From: Promethearchaeati archaeon
GTDB taxonomy: Archaea; Asgardarchaeota; Heimdallarchaeia; Heimdallarchaeales; Heimdallarchaeaceae
Assembly (NCBI GenBank): GCA_013166775.1
Contig: JABLTJ010000006.1
Location: 32,001 to 96,000, forward strand
Direction of reading: 5' to 3'
DNA: 64,000 nt
Positions 2,564 to 10,153 of the stretch are shown one piece after another. The position numbers and the translations under genes were made by a program. A model generated the notes under the pieces. The model had not been told where the DNA came from. It worked only from the letters and a program-made list of their open reading frames with translations, and did no database searches. Positions within the stretch are counted from its first letter, which is position 1. The number at the start of each line of letters is the position of its first letter.

Positions 2564-3454
2564 ATGAAAATTCTTCCAGGACCAGCTTCAAAAGAACTAG
2601 GTGAAAGAATAGCTAAATTACTAAAATTACCTCTTCTAGATCTCAATTCTAAGTATTTCAGTGATGGGGAAACATACTTGCAGATTGTTGGTGATGTACT
2701 AAATGAAGAGATAGCTATAGTTCAAACTACAGCTCCACCTCAAGAGAAAAGGTTGATGGAAATTCTTCTACTAGCATCTACGCTAAAGGAGATGGGAGCT
2801 AGTAAAGTAATCGCAATTGTTCCATACTTGTGTTATGCAAGATCAGATAGAAGAAGAAAAGATGGTGAAGTTGTTTCTCATGAAATAACAATGAATCTTT
2901 TTTATAATTCTGGAATAGATACTCTAATAACTATAAATGCACATAATTCAGAAATATTTCTTGAAACTGCTCCTAATATGGAGAAATTTGATTTGAATAT
3001 AATTCCATTTTTAGCAAAGGAAATTAAGAAATATAAAGACAAAGAATGGCTAATAATAGGTCCTGATTCAGGAAGTATAAAAGATATAGAACTAACCTCA
3101 AGGATCCTAAATCTCCCCTATATAACATTAGAAAAATATCGCGATCCAGATACTCATAAAATTTCGATTAAAGATGCAGAGATTGATTGTAAAGACAAGG
3201 ATGTTCTTCTCCTAGACGATATAATCTCTTCAGGAGGTACTGCAATAGACGCTATTAAACTAATATTAAAAAATAAGCCTTCAAGCTTGATTTTCTTCTG
3301 CATTCACAATCTAGCATCAGAAGAAGTGATCAACGAAATTAAAGGATTAGGAGTAAATGAAATCATATCATCAAATACAGTTGAAAGGGATGATATTGAA
3401 ACTATAGATATTGCTAATTCTATTACAGATTTACTTGAGGAAAAATATCTATGA
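2564..3454 (+). CDS. prs: Ribose-phosphate pyrophosphokinase (PRPP synthase)
   Basis: FSDGE, PYLCYARSDRR, GPDSGS, PRPP-binding DDIISSGGT. Confidence 0.95.
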   Translation: MKILPGPASKELGERIAKLLKLPLLDLNSKYFSDGETYLQIVGDVLNEEIAIVQTTAPPQEKRLMEILLLASTLKEMGASKVIAIVPYLCYARSDRRRKDGEVVSHEITMNLFYNSGIDTLITINAHNSEIFLETAPNMEKFDLNIIPFLAKEIKKYKDKEWLIIGPDSGSIKDIELTSRILNLPYITLEKYRDPDTHKISIKDAEIDCKDKDVLLLDDIISSGGTAIDAIKLILKNKPSSLIFFCIHNLASEEVINEIKGLGVNEIISSNTVERDDIETIDIANSITDLLEEKYL

Positions 3455-4476
3455 ATAAATATCTAGCATACATTCGAGGTCAGTTTTTACCTTTAGGATA
3501 TGAAGAGTTTTTTGCTTGTATGGAAGCTGAGAATATAAAATATCGAACAGAATTCTCTGAAAATCAAATTATATTGTTAGAAAGTGCTGGTAATCCTTCA
3601 AAAGCTGCATCTAGGTGTGCATTTTTACACTCGTTATTGAAAGTTGTAGCTATAGGAAATGTAGATGAATCAATCTCTATCACAAATGATTATAGACTCG
3701 ATGAAATTGAAAAAAATAAATCCTTTTGTGTAAGAGCAAATCGAATAGGAAAAAAACAAACTCGGATTTCAAGAGTGGAAATTGAAAGAGATTTGGGTAG
3801 TCATATCTATAAGAAATTTGAAAACAAATATTTGAATGTAAATCTCACCAATCCTGATTATCAATTTTATGCGATTATTCATAACAAAAAATTCTATCTG
3901 GGTTTAAAGCTATGGAGTGTGGATAGAGAGACCTACCGAAAGAGAGAACCAAGTCAACGTCCATCATTTAGACCTGGTTCAATGAAAACAGATTTCGCTA
4001 GAGCTTTGGTGAACTTGTCGAGAGTAAGAGAAGGAGATATCTTCTACGATCCCTTTTGTGGTGGAGGAGGATTCCTTATTGAATCATCAATTCTAGGAGC
4101 TTATTCTCTGGGATCTGATATATCAGCAGAAGCAGTTTTGAGTGCTGCAAAAAACCTAAAAAAATTCTCTGAAGGGGATTTTGCTATTATCAGAAGTGAT
4201 TCAAGAAAATCCATAATTAGAAAAGCTGATGCAATAGCAACAGATCCACCTTATGCTATTCAATCCTCCACTCATGGAAAGCAAGTAAAAGATCTACTAC
4301 ATGATTTTCTACTCGAATCAAAAACAATATTAGAACCAGGAAGATACTTAGTATTTGGTTCTCCTAAGAGGATAGAACCTGAAAAAATAGTTAAAAAGGT
4401 AGGGTATGAGATAGTTTCTATGATTGATGCGAGGATTCATAAATCCCTAACTAGAAGAATTATGGTTGTAAAGTGA
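3451..4476 (+). CDS. trm11: THUMP-domain tRNA m2G10/m22G10 methyltransferase (Trm11 family)
   Basis: N-terminal THUMP region (FCVRANR...NLTNPD), SAM motif DPFCGGGG, TDPPY; 4-nt overlap with prs. Confidence 0.88.
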   Translation: MNKYLAYIRGQFLPLGYEEFFACMEAENIKYRTEFSENQIILLESAGNPSKAASRCAFLHSLLKVVAIGNVDESISITNDYRLDEIEKNKSFCVRANRIGKKQTRISRVEIERDLGSHIYKKFENKYLNVNLTNPDYQFYAIIHNKKFYLGLKLWSVDRETYRKREPSQRPSFRPGSMKTDFARALVNLSRVREGDIFYDPFCGGGGFLIESSILGAYSLGSDISAEAVLSAAKNLKKFSEGDFAIIRSDSRKSIIRKADAIATDPPYAIQSSTHGKQVKDLLHDFLLESKTILEPGRYLVFGSPKRIEPEKIVKKVGYEIVSMIDARIHKSLTRRIMVVK

Positions 4477-4480
4477 TGCA

Positions 4481-5404
4481 ATGTCAGATAAAATGATTAT
4501 TACCTTTTTAGGAACTTCATCTGCTCCACCCCAAGCAGATAGAAGTCAGAGCTCAATGTCCTTAAAATATAGAAGGCACAATCTTTTATTTGATGTTGGT
4601 GAAGGGACACAATTTCAAATGGTGAAGAATAAAATTAGTATGAAGAATCTGACAATATTACTCACACATTTGCACTCAGATCATACTTTAGGATTGATTG
4701 GATTACTAACAACAAGAGATTTCTATAGCATTTCTTCTCCTGTTACTATAATTGGACCTCCATGGACTAGCTCGTTTGTTTTCTTACAGCTTTTAGCTTA
4801 TAGGTTAGAACCAGATTATGAAATTAAAATAATAGAAACTGAGGGAGGAATAGTAACATCAAATGATGACTTTTACATAGAATCCTTTAAAGTATCTCAC
4901 TCAGAAAATAGTTTCGGCTATAAAATTGAAACCCATAAACCCTTAGGAGTATTCAATGTAGAAAAAGCTGAAGAGAAAGAAATTCAGAAAGGAAAGCTAT
5001 GGAACAGAATTCAAAACGGTTTTCCCATAGAGATAGATGGAAAAATAATCTACCCTTCGGAAATTATGGATGATTCTCAAGCTAAGCAATTTAAAGTTGT
5101 AATTACTGGAGATACTAATATCTGTCAAAGTGTAATTAATAAGGCTTCTGAGGCAGATTTGTTAATACATGATGCAACTTATCCTCATACTGAAGAAAGA
5201 AGAGCAAAAAAATATCTGCACTCTACCTGTGTTGATGCTGCAAGAGTTGCTAAATTTTCTAATGTAAAGAAATTGGTGATGACCCATATTTCTACTCTGC
5301 ACGAGAATTTGAATGAATCTTTAGAATCAACTCAAAAAATTTTTCCTAATTCAGTTTTCGCGGAAGATGGTTTAAGGATTATTTTAGATCCTAAAGATTA
5401 TTGA
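4481..5404 (+). CDS. rnz: Ribonuclease Z
   Basis: FLGTSS, DVGEGTQ, THLHSDH, exosite, GDT, HDAT, HST, THIS. Confidence 0.95.
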   Translation: MSDKMIITFLGTSSAPPQADRSQSSMSLKYRRHNLLFDVGEGTQFQMVKNKISMKNLTILLTHLHSDHTLGLIGLLTTRDFYSISSPVTIIGPPWTSSFVFLQLLAYRLEPDYEIKIIETEGGIVTSNDDFYIESFKVSHSENSFGYKIETHKPLGVFNVEKAEEKEIQKGKLWNRIQNGFPIEIDGKIIYPSEIMDDSQAKQFKVVITGDTNICQSVINKASEADLLIHDATYPHTEERRAKKYLHSTCVDAARVAKFSNVKKLVMTHISTLHENLNESLESTQKIFPNSVFAEDGLRIILDPKDY

Positions 5405-5840
5405 TTTCATTAAATTCTATTCTTCTTGTTTCTCTACCCTCTACTGTTTGGGGTGCAAGCCAATCTAGGATCTTTTCTGGATTTTTCCCCTTAATTGATA
5501 GTTCAACGTTTCCTAACGGAGATGATGTATCAGCTGTAATGACAGCAAATTTTTTTGCAAAAAGTGCTTGTTTATGAAAATTTAAAACAACGCTATTTCT
5601 TTTGAAATCTAATATTGCACAGTATCTAACAGCATCCAAGATTTCCACTTTCCTGATGTAGTTAAAGAACTTCTCAAGTCCAGATATAGGTAGATTTTGA
5701 GCTTCTAGTAAGGTGTTATTCAAGATTTTTCTTTCTTCGAATTCAGGAATTACACCAAGAAGATTGCTAATGCAAATCTTAATCTTCTCTTTATTTTCTG
5801 TTGAAAAAAGAGGAACTGAAATTGCTAAAGAAGCACACAT
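5391..5840 (-). CDS. UPF0201/DUF54-type archaeal RNA-binding protein
   Basis: STENKEKI...NL, ILDAVR, HKQA, SPLG, WLAPQT pattern; usual partner of UPF0200. Confidence 0.8.
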   Translation of the reverse strand: MCASLAISVPLFSTENKEKIKICISNLLGVIPEFEERKILNNTLLEAQNLPISGLEKFFNYIRKVEILDAVRYCAILDFKRNSVVLNFHKQALFAKKFAVITADTSSPLGNVELSIKGKNPEKILDWLAPQTVEGRETRRIEFNEINNL

Positions 5841-6418
5841 TATTCTTCACCTTTTTCTAATTCATTCAAAAGATCTAATGAAGAATCTCTAAATTCATCT
5901 AGAGTTCTATTATTAAGGATAATATAGTTTGAGAAGGCAATAGTCTCTCCTAATCCTAGTTTCAGTTCAGATTCATCTCTTTTCTTAAAATCCTCCTCTG
6001 TTTGTGGAGCGTCCTTTCTCCCCCTTAATCTCAATCTTTCATATCTCAAAGTGGGATCCACATGTATTGCTACTATAACAAATTCGTCATTAAGATGATT
6101 CTTAAAATGATCAACTTCAGCTTGACTTCTGATTCCATCAATAATTATTCGATGATTTTCCTCTTCTATCAATTTATCAGTTGCTTTGCAGGTTAGATGT
6201 GCGACTGCATCTTCACCCATTTTTTCTCTGACTTGAACCATTACTCTTTGAGTATTATTGGGAGTAGGTTCAAATCCTTCTTCAATAACCTTCGCTCGAA
6301 TTACATCTCCCATAATGACAGTTTTGTAGCCTTTTTGAGCAGCATACTGTGCAAATAAGCTTTTCCCAGAACCAGGCATACCTGTTACTCCAATCACTCT
6401 AGTAATTCGATTTGTCAT
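5840..6418 (-). CDS. UPF0200 P-loop nucleotide kinase (dephospho-CoA kinase-like)
   Basis: GVTGMPGSGKS, MGDVIR, IDGIRS, RGRKD, RDESEL; start moved to ATG 6418 because the longer ORF overlaps the divergent gene. Confidence 0.85.
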   Translation of the reverse strand: MTNRITRVIGVTGMPGSGKSLFAQYAAQKGYKTVIMGDVIRAKVIEEGFEPTPNNTQRVMVQVREKMGEDAVAHLTCKATDKLIEEENHRIIIDGIRSQAEVDHFKNHLNDEFVIVAIHVDPTLRYERLRLRGRKDAPQTEEDFKKRDESELKLGLGETIAFSNYIILNNRTLDEFRDSSLDLLNELEKGEE

Positions 6419-6521: not shown

Positions 6522-7082
6522 ATGGTTCGTGCATTTATCTCCGTGGATTTCACTGATAAGAGTATTAAAGAGAAAATAAAAGATTTACAGGATGAAATCA
6601 GTTCTTCTGGAGCACATTTGAGAATAGTTAATCCAAGTAATTTACACATTACTTTAGAATTTCTAGGAGATATTACTGAGGATCAAGTTGCAGTATTAAA
6701 AGAAATTCTTGAAGAGCTGGAATTTGATTTAATTAAACTGAATGTAAAAAATCCTAATGTACTACCTAATGAGAACCATATCAGAGTAATCTATTGTGAA
6801 CTAGACGGAGATATCGAACCACTCAAAGAAATACAGAAAATTCTTAGAGAGAAACTTCGAACAAACGGTTTCAGAGTTGATAATCGCTCCTTTAAACCAC
6901 ATTTAACAATAGCAAGGGTGAAATCTGCTAAGAATAGAAAAGAATTAATTAGAGTTATTAAACAACAATCTAAAGTATCTTGTGGAATTCAAGAAATAAA
7001 TACAATAAATTTAAAAAAATCTATATTAAAACCAGAAGGACCTCAATATACGAAATTGCATGAAATTCAGGCAAGAAAATAG
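6522..7082 (+). CDS. thpR: RNA 2',3'-cyclic phosphodiesterase (2H family, LigT/ThpR)
   Basis: RAFIS start, two HxT motifs (HITL, PHLTI), GPQY end. Confidence 0.93.
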   Translation: MVRAFISVDFTDKSIKEKIKDLQDEISSSGAHLRIVNPSNLHITLEFLGDITEDQVAVLKEILEELEFDLIKLNVKNPNVLPNENHIRVIYCELDGDIEPLKEIQKILREKLRTNGFRVDNRSFKPHLTIARVKSAKNRKELIRVIKQQSKVSCGIQEINTINLKKSILKPEGPQYTKLHEIQARK

Positions 7083-7100: not shown

Positions 7101-8612
7101 ATGAGCAAATCTAATACTTCAGATCTAACTAGAAAGAAAGAGGTTCTTAATCATGAAGAAGTAGAAAAAAAAGTACTTGAAGTAATTCAAGTTCAATGGG
7201 AACAGCATGAAATACAAAGAGAACTTTTGTCAATCCTAAGTGAAAAAATTCAGATGGATTTGAATTCTCTTGGTTATATCGGAAGAGTAGAAACTCAGGG
7301 CTCATTTATTCGTAAAACCTATCTAAGTGAAGACGAAACTTTTGATTTGCTTCTGATTCTATCAAGATCAGAGAAAGCAAAAGTCCATCAAATTTTAGAT
7401 GCTTTGGTTCAAAGACTGAGAAAAGATAGAGTTAAGAAGCAGTTAATCAGTGTTGAAAAACATACTGGTAAGATGCCATACTTACGGATTATAATTGATG
7501 ACGAATTCATTAATCTGTTTGTAGGATTTGAAGTATTGCCCGGAGAAGAAACCATTTCCATTTTCGATTTAATCCCAATGCACACACAATATATTCTAAC
7601 CCATATGAAAGAAGAAACAAGACAAGAAGTCCTCCTATTCAAGAAATTCGTAAAAGCGATAGGTGTATACAGGAGTGAAATTGGAGCCATTGGATTCAAC
7701 GGATATCTTTGTGAGTTATTGATAATCTTCTACGGTACTTTTATAAAAGCAATTGAAGCAATAAGAAATTGGAAACCTAGAACCATTATTGATCCTAAGA
7801 AAAATCAAGAAAAAACTGAGGACGTTGATTTTCTTACAAGTGAACTTCTAGTAGGATATTATCCATTGTATGTTTTAGATCCACTTAATCCAAAAGATAA
7901 TGTAGCTGCAAGTGTTTCAGTAGATCAATATAATTCAATTATTGCAGCTGCAAATATTTACTTCTACAATCCTTTAATCAGCTTTTTTGAGGATCAATTG
8001 TGCGAAGCTCCACCCTTTGATGAATTAGTACGAAAGATAATTAATTCAGGAAGAGAAATAGTAGTTTTAGTAATAAACAGAGATTTTAAAGAGTCTGAAG
8101 TGTGCTGGCAAAAAGCAATAAGTATAAGATCGTCATTTGAAACTGAATTAAGGAACAACAATTACTTGCTTGAGAGAATAAAGCCTTTTGTCTCCGATGA
8201 ATACTTTGGGGTCTTTGTAAGTTTAATGGCTGCTAATCCACAAATTTCTTTAAGAAGAGAAGGACCTGAAATTACATCAAGAGAATCACTAAGATTCCTT
8301 AGACGATATTCTAAACATGCAGATGTAGTAGCTGGACCTTTTATTGATAATGATAAGTGGGTTATTCACTTTACTAAAAAAGGTCAAATAATACGTGATT
8401 TCCTTCAAAATCTTGTAAAGAAGAATACATTTGTTCTAAATGTAGATTCCTTTCTTAAAATAGAAATTAAAGAAAAAATGTCTGTTTTAAGCTTAGATGA
8501 AAAGCTAAGAGAAATGTATGAAATAGATGAAACTTTCTCTGAAAATCTCTTCTTATTTATCGAACGGAAACCTCTGTGGATATGTAGTTTAAAGGATGCT
8601 GATATATTTTAA
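7101..8612 (+). CDS. cca: Archaeal class I CCA-adding enzyme homologue with a degenerate active site
   Basis: GS..RKTYL, FKKFVKAIGVY, GFNGYLCELLI, DP...NVAA, C-terminal GP motifs; next to thpR; catalytic residues altered (see findings). Confidence 0.85.
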   Translation: MSKSNTSDLTRKKEVLNHEEVEKKVLEVIQVQWEQHEIQRELLSILSEKIQMDLNSLGYIGRVETQGSFIRKTYLSEDETFDLLLILSRSEKAKVHQILDALVQRLRKDRVKKQLISVEKHTGKMPYLRIIIDDEFINLFVGFEVLPGEETISIFDLIPMHTQYILTHMKEETRQEVLLFKKFVKAIGVYRSEIGAIGFNGYLCELLIIFYGTFIKAIEAIRNWKPRTIIDPKKNQEKTEDVDFLTSELLVGYYPLYVLDPLNPKDNVAASVSVDQYNSIIAAANIYFYNPLISFFEDQLCEAPPFDELVRKIINSGREIVVLVINRDFKESEVCWQKAISIRSSFETELRNNNYLLERIKPFVSDEYFGVFVSLMAANPQISLRREGPEITSRESLRFLRRYSKHADVVAGPFIDNDKWVIHFTKKGQIIRDFLQNLVKKNTFVLNVDSFLKIEIKEKMSVLSLDEKLREMYEIDETFSENLFLFIERKPLWICSLKDADIF

Positions 8613-8638: not shown

Positions 8639-10153
8639 TTATTTCTTTCTGCGTAGATATACTATTGCAATAATTGGTGTTATTGAAGCTGTGATTATTA
8701 ATAAATCTGTAGCACTGAAACCTATTGTGAAAGTATTACCATTTCCTTCATCTGTTGGATTTTCACCTTCTTTCAGCAACTTAACTGGATGAATGACGAA
8801 ATATGGTTTTCCATCAATATCTTTCAAATCAAAATAATTAGGCCCATCTTCAGAGTTTTGAGCTAAAACCACAGTTATATACATATAGTCTCCTGCAGTG
8901 AAAACCCAATCTTTTCCAACTGAATCACCAGAATTTAGTGGTTTAGAAAATTCCACTTGTCTGTGAGTACTTGTATAGGTAACATTTGCTTGACCATCGT
9001 TCATACCGCCAACTGATTCATCAGCTGTTGGTTCACCAAGACCTCTAGGAATATAACCGTCAAGATAACCGTAGCTTCCCATCATCACGAAATCAGTTCC
9101 TTCTGAATAATTAAGCATATCAACTCCTTTACCTAGCACTAAACCTATCCAGTCTCCAGGTGACTCAAGTTCATCATATAAATCAAAGTAGAAATACATG
9201 TTAACTCCATCATGGCAAACTAACATTGTGATATTCCAAACTAGATTTGTGTCAATTATCCCAGTACTCCAATTTAGATAAGATAGTGTCAATTGATATT
9301 CCATCGCATCATTCCATGCTGCTTCATTAGCTTCACCATCTATTTCAATAGGTTTTACTATGTATGGAGCTTGATATTCAGAACCTTCAACAGATCCTGG
9401 ATACATGGGTCCTCCATATATGTCCAATTGATCTCCTAGATTATCTCCTATATCTAATCGAATGTAGCGGAATTCCTCAGGAATCATTGTACCAAAGTTT
9501 GGTCCATTATCTTCAGGTAAGATATTAATCCATGCTGCAATTTCAACTGCAATTGCTTGTCCATAGTCCAAGAATATATCTTTCCCTGCTGAGTCACCTG
9601 ATCTAAGAGGTTTACTTCCTTCAAAGAAAGAACCATACAAACTTGTGTAGTTTAAGTAGCAAAAGGCATCATTTGTACCACCATAATACTCATCTCCCAT
9701 TGGTGGTGATGGGTCTTCATCCCCATCCGGAAAAGCTAAGTCCATATAAGTATTATAATAAGCATACATGTGTACTCCATCATTCTGTCCTGGTTTACCA
9801 AAGAAATGAATATCTGCTGCTTTAACATGACCCAAATCAACTGGAATGTATAGAAACCAGAAAAGATGAGAATTGTTGTGAGCGAAATTTATGACTGTGG
9901 TTAGTGTGTCATATTCGCTTTGAAAAGTGGTAGTTGTTCCATCATCATAACCAAAGATATCAAAATATCCTTCGTTAGCCATATTCCAATCACCGTAATC
10001 TCCATCAACTAAGATACCAGGATTATATTCAGCAACTAAGGATAGAGTGGGTGCAATTGTATCTTGGGCAGCTGTGTCAATTACGCCTGTGCTCAGGATA
10101 CTTATTCCAAAAATTGTAATAACTACTATTGTTAGTGTTCTATAGACCTTCAT
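8639..10153 (-). CDS. Secreted, C-terminally anchored protein with two DOMON/CBM9-like domains
   Basis: Signal peptide; two copies of VDG..W / AHN..HLF / GGTND / EFSKPL.SGD..GKD; terminal TM plus LRRKK. Confidence 0.7.
   Translation of the reverse strand: MKVYRTLTIVVITIFGISILSTGVIDTAAQDTIAPTLSLVAEYNPGILVDGDYGDWNMANEGYFDIFGYDDGTTTTFQSEYDTLTTVINFAHNNSHLFWFLYIPVDLGHVKAADIHFFGKPGQNDGVHMYAYYNTYMDLAFPDGDEDPSPPMGDEYYGGTNDAFCYLNYTSLYGSFFEGSKPLRSGDSAGKDIFLDYGQAIAVEIAAWINILPEDNGPNFGTMIPEEFRYIRLDIGDNLGDQLDIYGGPMYPGSVEGSEYQAPYIVKPIEIDGEANEAAWNDAMEYQLTLSYLNWSTGIIDTNLVWNITMLVCHDGVNMYFYFDLYDELESPGDWIGLVLGKGVDMLNYSEGTDFVMMGSYGYLDGYIPRGLGEPTADESVGGMNDGQANVTYTSTHRQVEFSKPLNSGDSVGKDWVFTAGDYMYITVVLAQNSEDGPNYFDLKDIDGKPYFVIHPVKLLKEGENPTDEGNGNTFTIGFSATDLLIITASITPIIAIVYLRRKK

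What the first reader, a model, noticed from the sequence alone, without database searches (positions are those of the whole stretch)
7101..8612. Full-length CCA-adding enzyme homologue with an eroded catalytic centre
Seen, compared from memory with Archaeoglobus fulgidus CCA (E59/D61/D110, AEHPY, R224): the first carboxylate is Thr (SEDETFDLL), the third is Asn (EFINLFVG), AEHPY is GKMPY, DRTPFH is DLIPMH, and the RNVAA Arg is Asp (KDNVAA). The ORF is intact and sits in the usual thpR-cca position. Inference: a catalytically dead tRNA-binding pseudo-enzyme. CCA addition would then need another enzyme, and a class II (bacterial/eukaryote-type) replacement in an Asgard lineage would be evolutionarily notable.
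Basis: partly seen in the sequence, partly recalled or inferred. Interest (0 to 1): 0.7.

Follow-up and report, generated by a model that had tools for sequence, protein, structure and literature searches.

The report
Dead but conserved Asgard CCA enzyme
This Asgard archaeon keeps a catalytically broken copy of its own tRNA-tail enzyme while a borrowed bacterial-type enzyme does the job; a 2026 preprint already showed this swap, and what is still open is why the broken copy is conserved more tightly than the working one.

Summary
Observation confirmed. The 503-aa ORF is a class I CCA-enzyme homologue with AfCCA E59>T80, D110>N138, H97>M125, R129>L157 and R224>D266. These losses hold in all 31 family sequences; E59, R129 and R224 are kept or conservatively changed in 160 of 160 intact relatives. 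The organism is a Heimdallarchaeaceae member. Its genome has one intact class II CCA gene (contig C102) and no other class I gene found; 50 of 53 tRNA genes found encode CCA. The core story is published (bioRxiv 10.64898/2026.05.29.728689): the H. aukensis orthologue (54% identical) is inactive in vitro and its class II enzyme adds CCA. The scan also found this before on other genomes. Not in the preprint: the dead protein is under stronger purifying selection (dN/dS 0.03-0.11) than the class II enzyme (0.08-0.33) or four intact class I pairs (0.09-0.16), so it has a new job. Encoded CCA is shared with intact-enzyme families, so it does not explain the loss. Eukaryotes show the same pairing (class II enzyme plus dead class I homologue Utp22/NOL6), but the model is no closer to Utp22 than an intact control (Z 20.5 vs 20.6).

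The parts
7101..8612 (+). Inactive class I CCA-adding enzyme homologue, 503 aa, full four-domain fold
   Evidence: AlphaFold2 model pLDDT 88; best fold match AfCCA, Z 28.5, rmsd 4.7, 434 aligned
7299..7346 (+). Nucleotidyltransferase signature: G67-S68, R71, T73 and D82 kept; first carboxylate replaced by T80 (7338-7340)
7467..7514 (+). Beta-turn remodelled (G123-K124-M125) and third carboxylate replaced by N138 (7512-7514)
7566..7583 (+). DRTPFH motif with its Arg replaced by L157; D156 and H161 invariant
7896..7898 (+). D266 in place of the base-selecting R224
   Evidence: role of R224 from PMC3925840
6522..7082 (+). thpR, RNA 2',3'-cyclic phosphodiesterase; both HxT motifs intact; directly upstream on the same strand
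   Evidence: TIGR02258 138.7 bits, cut-off 65.7; synteny; alignment
5840..6418 (-). P-loop kinase (AAA_17/CoaE-like), divergent neighbour
5391..5840 (-). PF01877 (UPF0201-like) RNA-binding protein; weak match below the Pfam cut-off
4481..5404 (+). Probable RNase Z (metallo-beta-lactamase fold), same tRNA-processing cluster
3451..4476 (+). THUMP + methyltransferase protein (Trm11/TrmG10-like), same cluster

Best explanation
This is the vertically inherited archaeal class I CCA gene of Heimdallarchaeaceae, turned into a pseudo-enzyme with a new, non-polymerase job. (1) Shown: it lacks two of three metal carboxylates, the primer-monitoring beta-turn and R224 across the family. (2) Published for the orthologue, inferred here (about 0.93): it does not add CCA. 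The class II enzyme on contig C102 adds and repairs CCA and is needed at least for tRNA-Gln(CTG); most tRNAs carry an encoded CCA that RNase Z can expose. (3) Shown: after a burst of change on the family stem the protein became tightly constrained, so it is functional rather than decaying (about 0.9). (4) Inferred (about 0.45, my committed mechanism): it uses the retained class I clamp (tail and body plus the residual phosphate pocket S68/R71/D82/H161/K181/Y190) to hold a structured RNA, either a tRNA top half or a tRNA-like precursor element, as a chaperone or scaffold in RNA maturation without extending it. This would parallel Utp22/NOL6 by convergence.
For: Motif loss: (all five genera of the family). 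One clade, support 100, stem 1.51 changes per column, short crown branches. G045 has the exact length of H. aukensis PM71, 3,081,793 bp; its class I gene shows the R224>N change the preprint names and is 54% identical to ours. Class II gene with DxD, third-carboxylate Glu, flexible loop, RRD and EDxxR and no poly(A)-polymerase signature; it is 43% identical to the H. aukensis enzyme shown active. No second class I gene in a six-frame HMM search. dN/dS 0.047-0.114 in 22 unsaturated same-genus pairs against 0.08-0.33 for class II and 0.09-0.28 for ThpR; 0.032 against 0.104 in H. aukensis/endolithica; 0.09-0.16 in four intact class I pairs. Identity to relatives exceeds PRPP synthetase, Trm11, ThpR and mostly RNase Z. 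Whole fold kept. Precedent for a non-catalytic class I derivative: Utp22 (PMC3794860).
Against: No direct evidence for RNA binding. Several cleft columns conserved in intact enzymes are changed (R129, R149, D291>E, Q296>K, R299>S), and the family is mostly acidic where family f7 intact enzymes are basic (some other intact enzymes are acidic too). The in vitro negative is one orthologue, one substrate (yeast tRNA-Phe lacking CCA) and one unreviewed preprint. The genome is 88.7% complete, so a further gene could be unassembled; the two single-contig Heimdallarchaeum genomes show the same one-plus-one content. dN/dS is simple Nei-Gojobori, and the pairs share ancestry. Phosphate-contact roles of S47/R50/H133/K152/Y161 are from memory.
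Confidence: 0.7

Rival explanations
1. Nucleotide-binding or protein-scaffold pseudo-enzyme that no longer binds RNA, like MiD49/51, MAB21L1 or the NF45/NF90 DZF domains: the residual pocket binds an NTP and new surfaces bind a protein partner.
For: G67, S68, T73, D82, H161, K181 and Y190 are invariant while the base- and primer-reading residues are lost. New invariant patches: R105/D109, D241-V242-D243, Y253-Y254, D449/F451. Residues 427-495 are more conserved than in family f7 (58% vs 40%) and the pI is acidic. NF90-NF45, MiD49 and MAB21L1 are among the fold matches.
Against: The invariant pocket residues may be structural. The tRNA-elbow tail (G388-P389, F399, G412-P413) is kept. The gene stays in a tRNA-processing cluster. 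No partner is known.
Confidence: 0.25
2. Still an enzyme with a rebuilt metal site (D82 plus N/H138 and nearby D78/E79) that catalyses a different nucleotidyl transfer, missed by an assay for CCA addition.
For: D82 is invariant; column 138 is only N or H; an acidic run precedes the catalytic strand; selection is strong; 16 otherwise intact enzymes carry Asn at this column.
Against: An acid at column 78 is also common in intact enzymes (97 of 160), and column 79 is N or T in 3 of 31 family members, so neither looks like a new ligand. In the model T80, D82 and N138 lie on the catalytic strands and 77-79 in the preceding loop. The orthologue added nothing in vitro.
Confidence: 0.1
3. True orthologue or direct precursor of eukaryotic Utp22/NOL6: a dead class I CCA protein already recruited to pre-rRNA maturation in the archaeal lineage, freed by the same class II import.
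For: Same pairing as in eukaryotes. Utp22 is two degenerate class I modules with one conserved Asp. The preprint groups this family's class II enzyme with eukaryotic ones. Utp22 is the first non-AfCCA Foldseek hit (E 1.2e-12).
Against: The intact control P0066 matches Utp22 and NOL6 equally well: Z 20.6 and 20.2 against 20.5 and 19.8 for the dead protein, TM by query 0.47 against 0.48. No Nrap Pfam family is listed for the 33 family members at E<=5. The family profile finds no Utp22 chain in the PDB at E<=10. Single module, not tandem. The preprint's AU test could not fix the order of its three class II clades.
Confidence: 0.06
4. A relic that is decaying after replacement, kept by inertia or because it shares an operon with thpR.
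For: Catalytic residues are gone, a replacement exists and most tRNAs encode CCA. The preprint calls it intact but silenced.
Against: Found in 27 of 30 other family genomes, with open frames wherever the contig allows. dN/dS 0.03-0.11, lower than for the working enzyme. 94% identical between H. aukensis and H. endolithica, whose average amino-acid identity is 90%. Families f3 and f5 lack a full-length class I match in nearly all genomes searched yet keep thpR.
Confidence: 0.03

Closest known systems
Heimdallarchaeaceae ('Heim12') inactive CCA1, Ca. Heimdallarchaeum aukensis PM71 (Cassidy et al., bioRxiv 10.64898/2026.05.29.728689)
   Same: Orthologue: 54% identical, same clade, same thpR position, same loss of both carboxylates, the beta-turn and R224; same genome content of dead class I plus class II.
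   Different: Different genus; R224 is Asp here and Asn there. The preprint names only the Arg and indels. Its main text has no mention of encoded CCA, tRNA genes, thpR or Utp22, and no analysis of selection on the dead gene.
Archaeoglobus fulgidus class I CCA-adding enzyme (TIGR03671; PDB 1r89, 4x4n)
   Same: Same four-domain fold (Z 28.5, rmsd 4.7, 434 aligned); GS, D61, H133, K152, Y161, neck and tail motifs kept.
   Different: E59, D110, A95-E96-H97, R129, R149, S171, D221 and R224 replaced; about 65 residues longer, with an acidic neck insertion.
Utp22/NOL6 (Nrap family; PDB 4m5d; Lin et al. 2013, PMC3794860)
   Same: Catalytically dead class I CCA derivative in an organism that uses a class II enzyme; one active-site Asp kept.
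   Different: Utp22 is a tandem two-module protein of about 1,200 aa bound to Rrp7 with blocked RNA channels. No sequence link, and no more structural likeness than an intact class I control.

Membership tests
Class I CCA-adding enzyme (active) | Four-domain class I fold over the full length | tested here: met
Class I CCA-adding enzyme (active) | Three catalytic carboxylates E59/D61/D110 (PMC3925840) | tested here: not met
   T80, D82, N138; family-wide
Class I CCA-adding enzyme (active) | Base-selecting R224 | tested here: not met
   D266; Arg in 0 of 31 family members and 160 of 160 intact proteins
Class I CCA-adding enzyme (active) | Primer-monitoring beta-turn (AxHPY) and DR motif | tested here: not met
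   G123-K124-M125 and L157
Class I CCA-adding enzyme (active) | TIGR03671 score above 281.3 bits | tested here: not met
   237.5 bits; one intact-motif enzyme, G027, also falls just short at 277
Class I CCA-adding enzyme (active) | Adds CCA to tRNA | not testable with these tools
   Orthologue reported inactive in vitro
Heimdallarchaeaceae inactive CCA1 (Heim12) | Groups with the H. aukensis protein | tested here: met
   One clade, SH-aLRT 100; G045 identified by exact genome length
Heimdallarchaeaceae inactive CCA1 (Heim12) | Conserved Arg lost, and a class II enzyme in the same genome | tested here: met
Class II CCA-adding enzyme (gene on contig C102) | DxD, third carboxylate, RRD, EDxxR and flexible loop present; poly(A)-polymerase signature absent; no second class II gene | tested here: met
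   scores below all NCBIfam equivalog cut-offs
Class II CCA-adding enzyme (gene on contig C102) | Adds the full CCA | not testable with these tools
   43%-identical H. aukensis orthologue reported active
Utp22/NOL6 (Nrap) | Class I CCA fold with a degenerate active site | tested here: met
Utp22/NOL6 (Nrap) | Two tandem modules in one chain | tested here: not met
   Single 503-aa module; family members are about 495-515 aa
Utp22/NOL6 (Nrap) | Nrap Pfam domains | tested here: not met
   None listed for 33 members; PF03813 and PF17403 do not hit this gene in five genomes
Utp22/NOL6 (Nrap) | Structurally closer to Utp22 than intact class I enzymes are | tested here: inconclusive
   Z 20.5 against 20.6 for the control, a tie
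Utp22/NOL6 (Nrap) | Rrp7 partner | not tested
   No Rrp7 search was run
Utp22/NOL6 (Nrap) | Acts on pre-rRNA | not testable with these tools
   Needs CLIP or depletion

The most novel reading that the evidence does not exclude
After importing a class II CCA enzyme, Heimdallarchaeaceae redeployed their class I protein as a non-catalytic pre-rRNA or tRNA-like-RNA maturation factor, a living single-module version of the step proposed for the origin of eukaryotic Utp22/NOL6, whether by shared ancestry or in parallel.
Probability: 0.12. Interest if true: 0.85.

Novelty: already known. Interest (0 to 1): 0.35.

Why it matters
The swap of an archaeal for a bacterial-type CCA enzyme in an Asgard family bears on the origin of the eukaryotic enzyme, but that is already reported with biochemistry. 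What remains is the unknown function of the dead protein. It is more constrained than the working enzyme, it can be expressed (the preprint purified its orthologue), and it is the kind of intermediate Lin et al. 2013 imagined for Utp22/NOL6. That makes a standing question, how a tRNA enzyme became a ribosome assembly factor, testable in an Asgard protein.

Tried and rejected
(1) Encoded CCA as the reason for the loss: rejected. About 81-93% of T-arm matches are followed by CCA in families with intact class I enzymes too. (2) A specific Utp22/NOL6 link: nothing by Pfam, by PDB profile, or by fold against an intact control. (3) Complex prediction with ThpR: 'no answer', score 0.02; no evidence either way. 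ThpR persists in families without class I matches, so it does not need this protein. (4) RNA runs: no RNA holder was listed. (5) A second class I gene: only a short N-terminal-domain match on C97 (17-20 bits, profile positions about 19-98), not followed up. (6) The sigma-70 promoter scan was below chance and is unsuited to archaea. (7) The ESM Atlas returned only CCA-enzyme clusters. (8) Primary AfCCA structure papers were not held, so residue roles beyond E59, D61, D110, R224, the beta-turn and the tail rest on memory.

Full report
Observation. The ORF at 7101-8612 (+) encodes 503 residues with no internal stop and follows thpR (6522-7082) by 18 nt. It matches the archaeal class I model TIGR03671 over nearly its whole length at 237.5 bits, below the 281.3 cut-off. 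Against solved A. fulgidus CCA, E59 is T80, D61 is kept as D82, D110 is N138, the beta-turn reads GKMPY, R129 is L157 and R224 is D266. E59, D61 and D110 are the metal ligands, R224 reads the incoming base and the beta-turn monitors the tRNA end (PMC3925840).

It is a family trait, not an error. In 31 family sequences the first carboxylate column is T, S, V or I, the third is N or H, and R224 is never Arg. In 160 intact class I proteins the first column is always acidic and R224 is always Arg. All five genera of the family sampled carry the dead form, and it was found in 27 of 30 other family genomes; the three without it are 76-86% complete. Asn at the third column alone is not diagnostic, since 16 otherwise intact proteins have it. 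The AlphaFold2 model (pLDDT 88) keeps the full class I fold, with T80, D82 and N138 on the catalytic strands. The acidic run 77-79 lies in the preceding loop. Column 78 is often acidic in intact enzymes and column 79 is not invariant, so a substitute ligand is unlikely, though I could not measure distances.

Organism. Close homologues are labelled Heimdallarchaeota or Heimdallarchaeaceae. A same-family genome, G045, has the exact length of Ca. H. aukensis PM71, 3,081,793 bp.

Who adds CCA. The genome has one class II gene (contig C102, about 87,135-88,619) with DxD, a third-carboxylate Glu, the flexible loop, RRD and EDxxR, and without the poly(A)-polymerase signature. A six-frame HMM search found no second class I or class II gene; the assembly is 88.7% complete. 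Among 83 genomes of the class, class II was found in 26 of 30 of the own family and in 11 of 12 and 19 of 22 of families f3 and f5, which lack full-length class I matches apart from G047 and a partial G067. It was found in none of 18 genomes of f2, f4, f6 and f7; class I motifs are intact in the f2, f4 and f7 proteins inspected, and f6 was not inspected. ARAGORN gave 49 plausible tRNA genes, 47 ending in encoded CCA. Four more genes with T-loop introns were missed, three of them with CCA, giving 50 of 53. The only tRNA-Gln(CTG) found lacks CCA, so new CCA synthesis is still needed. Two methanogen RNase Z enzymes cut just after an encoded CCA (PMC7479834), and a probable RNase Z gene lies 1.7 kb upstream.

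Encoded CCA does not explain the loss. The share of T-arm matches followed by CCA is 90% in the own family, 83-93% in f2, f4 and f6, 81% in f7, but 8% and 14% in f3 and f5. It goes with having a class I protein of either kind. These are a few related lineages, so no statistic is claimed.

Already published. Cassidy et al. (bioRxiv 10.64898/2026.05.29.728689) report that Heimdallarchaeaceae encode both classes, that H. aukensis CCA1 is completely inactive on yeast tRNA-Phe, that its conserved Arg is replaced by Asn, and that its class II enzyme adds the full CCA. G045's class I protein shows that Asn and is 54% identical to ours; the class II proteins are 43% identical. The scan's earlier notes hold the same finding on other genomes.

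What the preprint does not cover. Its main text treats the protein as silenced and does not mention encoded CCA, thpR or Utp22. The dead proteins form one clade (support 100) on a long stem of 1.51 with short crown branches. dN/dS is 0.047-0.114 in 22 unsaturated same-genus pairs, against 0.08-0.33 for class II and 0.09-0.28 for ThpR, and is the lowest of the genes compared in every one of these pairs. It is 0.032 against 0.104 for the two Heimdallarchaeum species, and 0.09-0.16 in four intact class I pairs. Among its neighbours only Lon is clearly more conserved. A burst of change followed by tight constraint indicates a new function (inference).

Mechanism. Kept: the fold, G67-S68, R71, D82, H161, K181, Y190, the neck motifs and the tail motifs; the tail anchors the tRNA elbow in AfCCA. 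Lost: the residues that read the base and position the primer end. I commit to a non-catalytic RNA clamp in tRNA or tRNA-like RNA maturation (about 0.45). The main rival is a nucleotide-binding or protein scaffold (0.25), favoured by the acidic pI and new conserved acidic and C-terminal patches. An altered chemistry (0.1) is not excluded by one assay. A decaying relic (0.03) is contradicted by selection.

Utp22/NOL6. Eukaryotes pair a class II enzyme with a dead tandem class I derivative (PMC3794860). The parallel is real, but no special kinship was found. An intact close relative, P0066, folded the same way matches Utp22 and NOL6 as well as the dead protein does (Z 20.6 and 20.2 against 20.5 and 19.8), and there is no sequence link. 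It may work like Utp22; it fails membership on the tandem architecture and the Nrap signatures.

Verdict. Real and correctly read, but the headline is already known. Interest 0.35, carried by the unexplained strong conservation of the dead protein.

Noticed in passing
G000 contig C97 about 134,344-136,390; C22 14,925-15,035 and 36,036-36,145: Four tRNA genes (two Gln, Phe, Asn) carry hairpin introns in the T-loop and are missed by ARAGORN; Gln(CTG) and one Gln(TTG) lack encoded CCA.
   Followed up: partly
   Followed up: no
83 genomes of the class: The two families that rely on class II enzymes only (f3, f5) mostly do not encode CCA in tRNA genes (8-14%), while families with a class I protein mostly do (81-93%).
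   Followed up: partly
P0040, P0044 and others: 16 of 160 otherwise intact archaeal class I enzymes have Asn at the D110 column; they might be impaired in A76 addition (role of D110 recalled from memory).
   Followed up: no
L076 (G047 contig C101): Intact class I gene in a family f5 genome nests inside family f7, and the genome has two full thpR copies; probably bin contamination.
   Followed up: partly
L099/L100 (P0066; GCA_030666915.1): Closest intact relative of the dead clade (278 bits; sister with support 89), next to thpR and cdc6.
   Followed up: partly
P0207: PAP2-type phosphatase domain in one frame with a full class I CCA domain set, 695 aa; may be a fusion or a gene-call artefact.
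   Followed up: no
window 8639-10153 (-): 504-aa acidic protein with a hydrophobic N-terminus and C-terminal anchor and no Pfam match; present downstream of the gene in three of the related loci and absent in others.
   Followed up: no
L003 361-1167 (-): Membrane protein next to the class II gene with about eight copies of a six-residue His/Asp repeat, possibly metal binding.
   Followed up: no
L083 (G025, family f2): Intact class I protein has Arg in place of the Gly of the GS motif, the only such case among 160.
   Followed up: no
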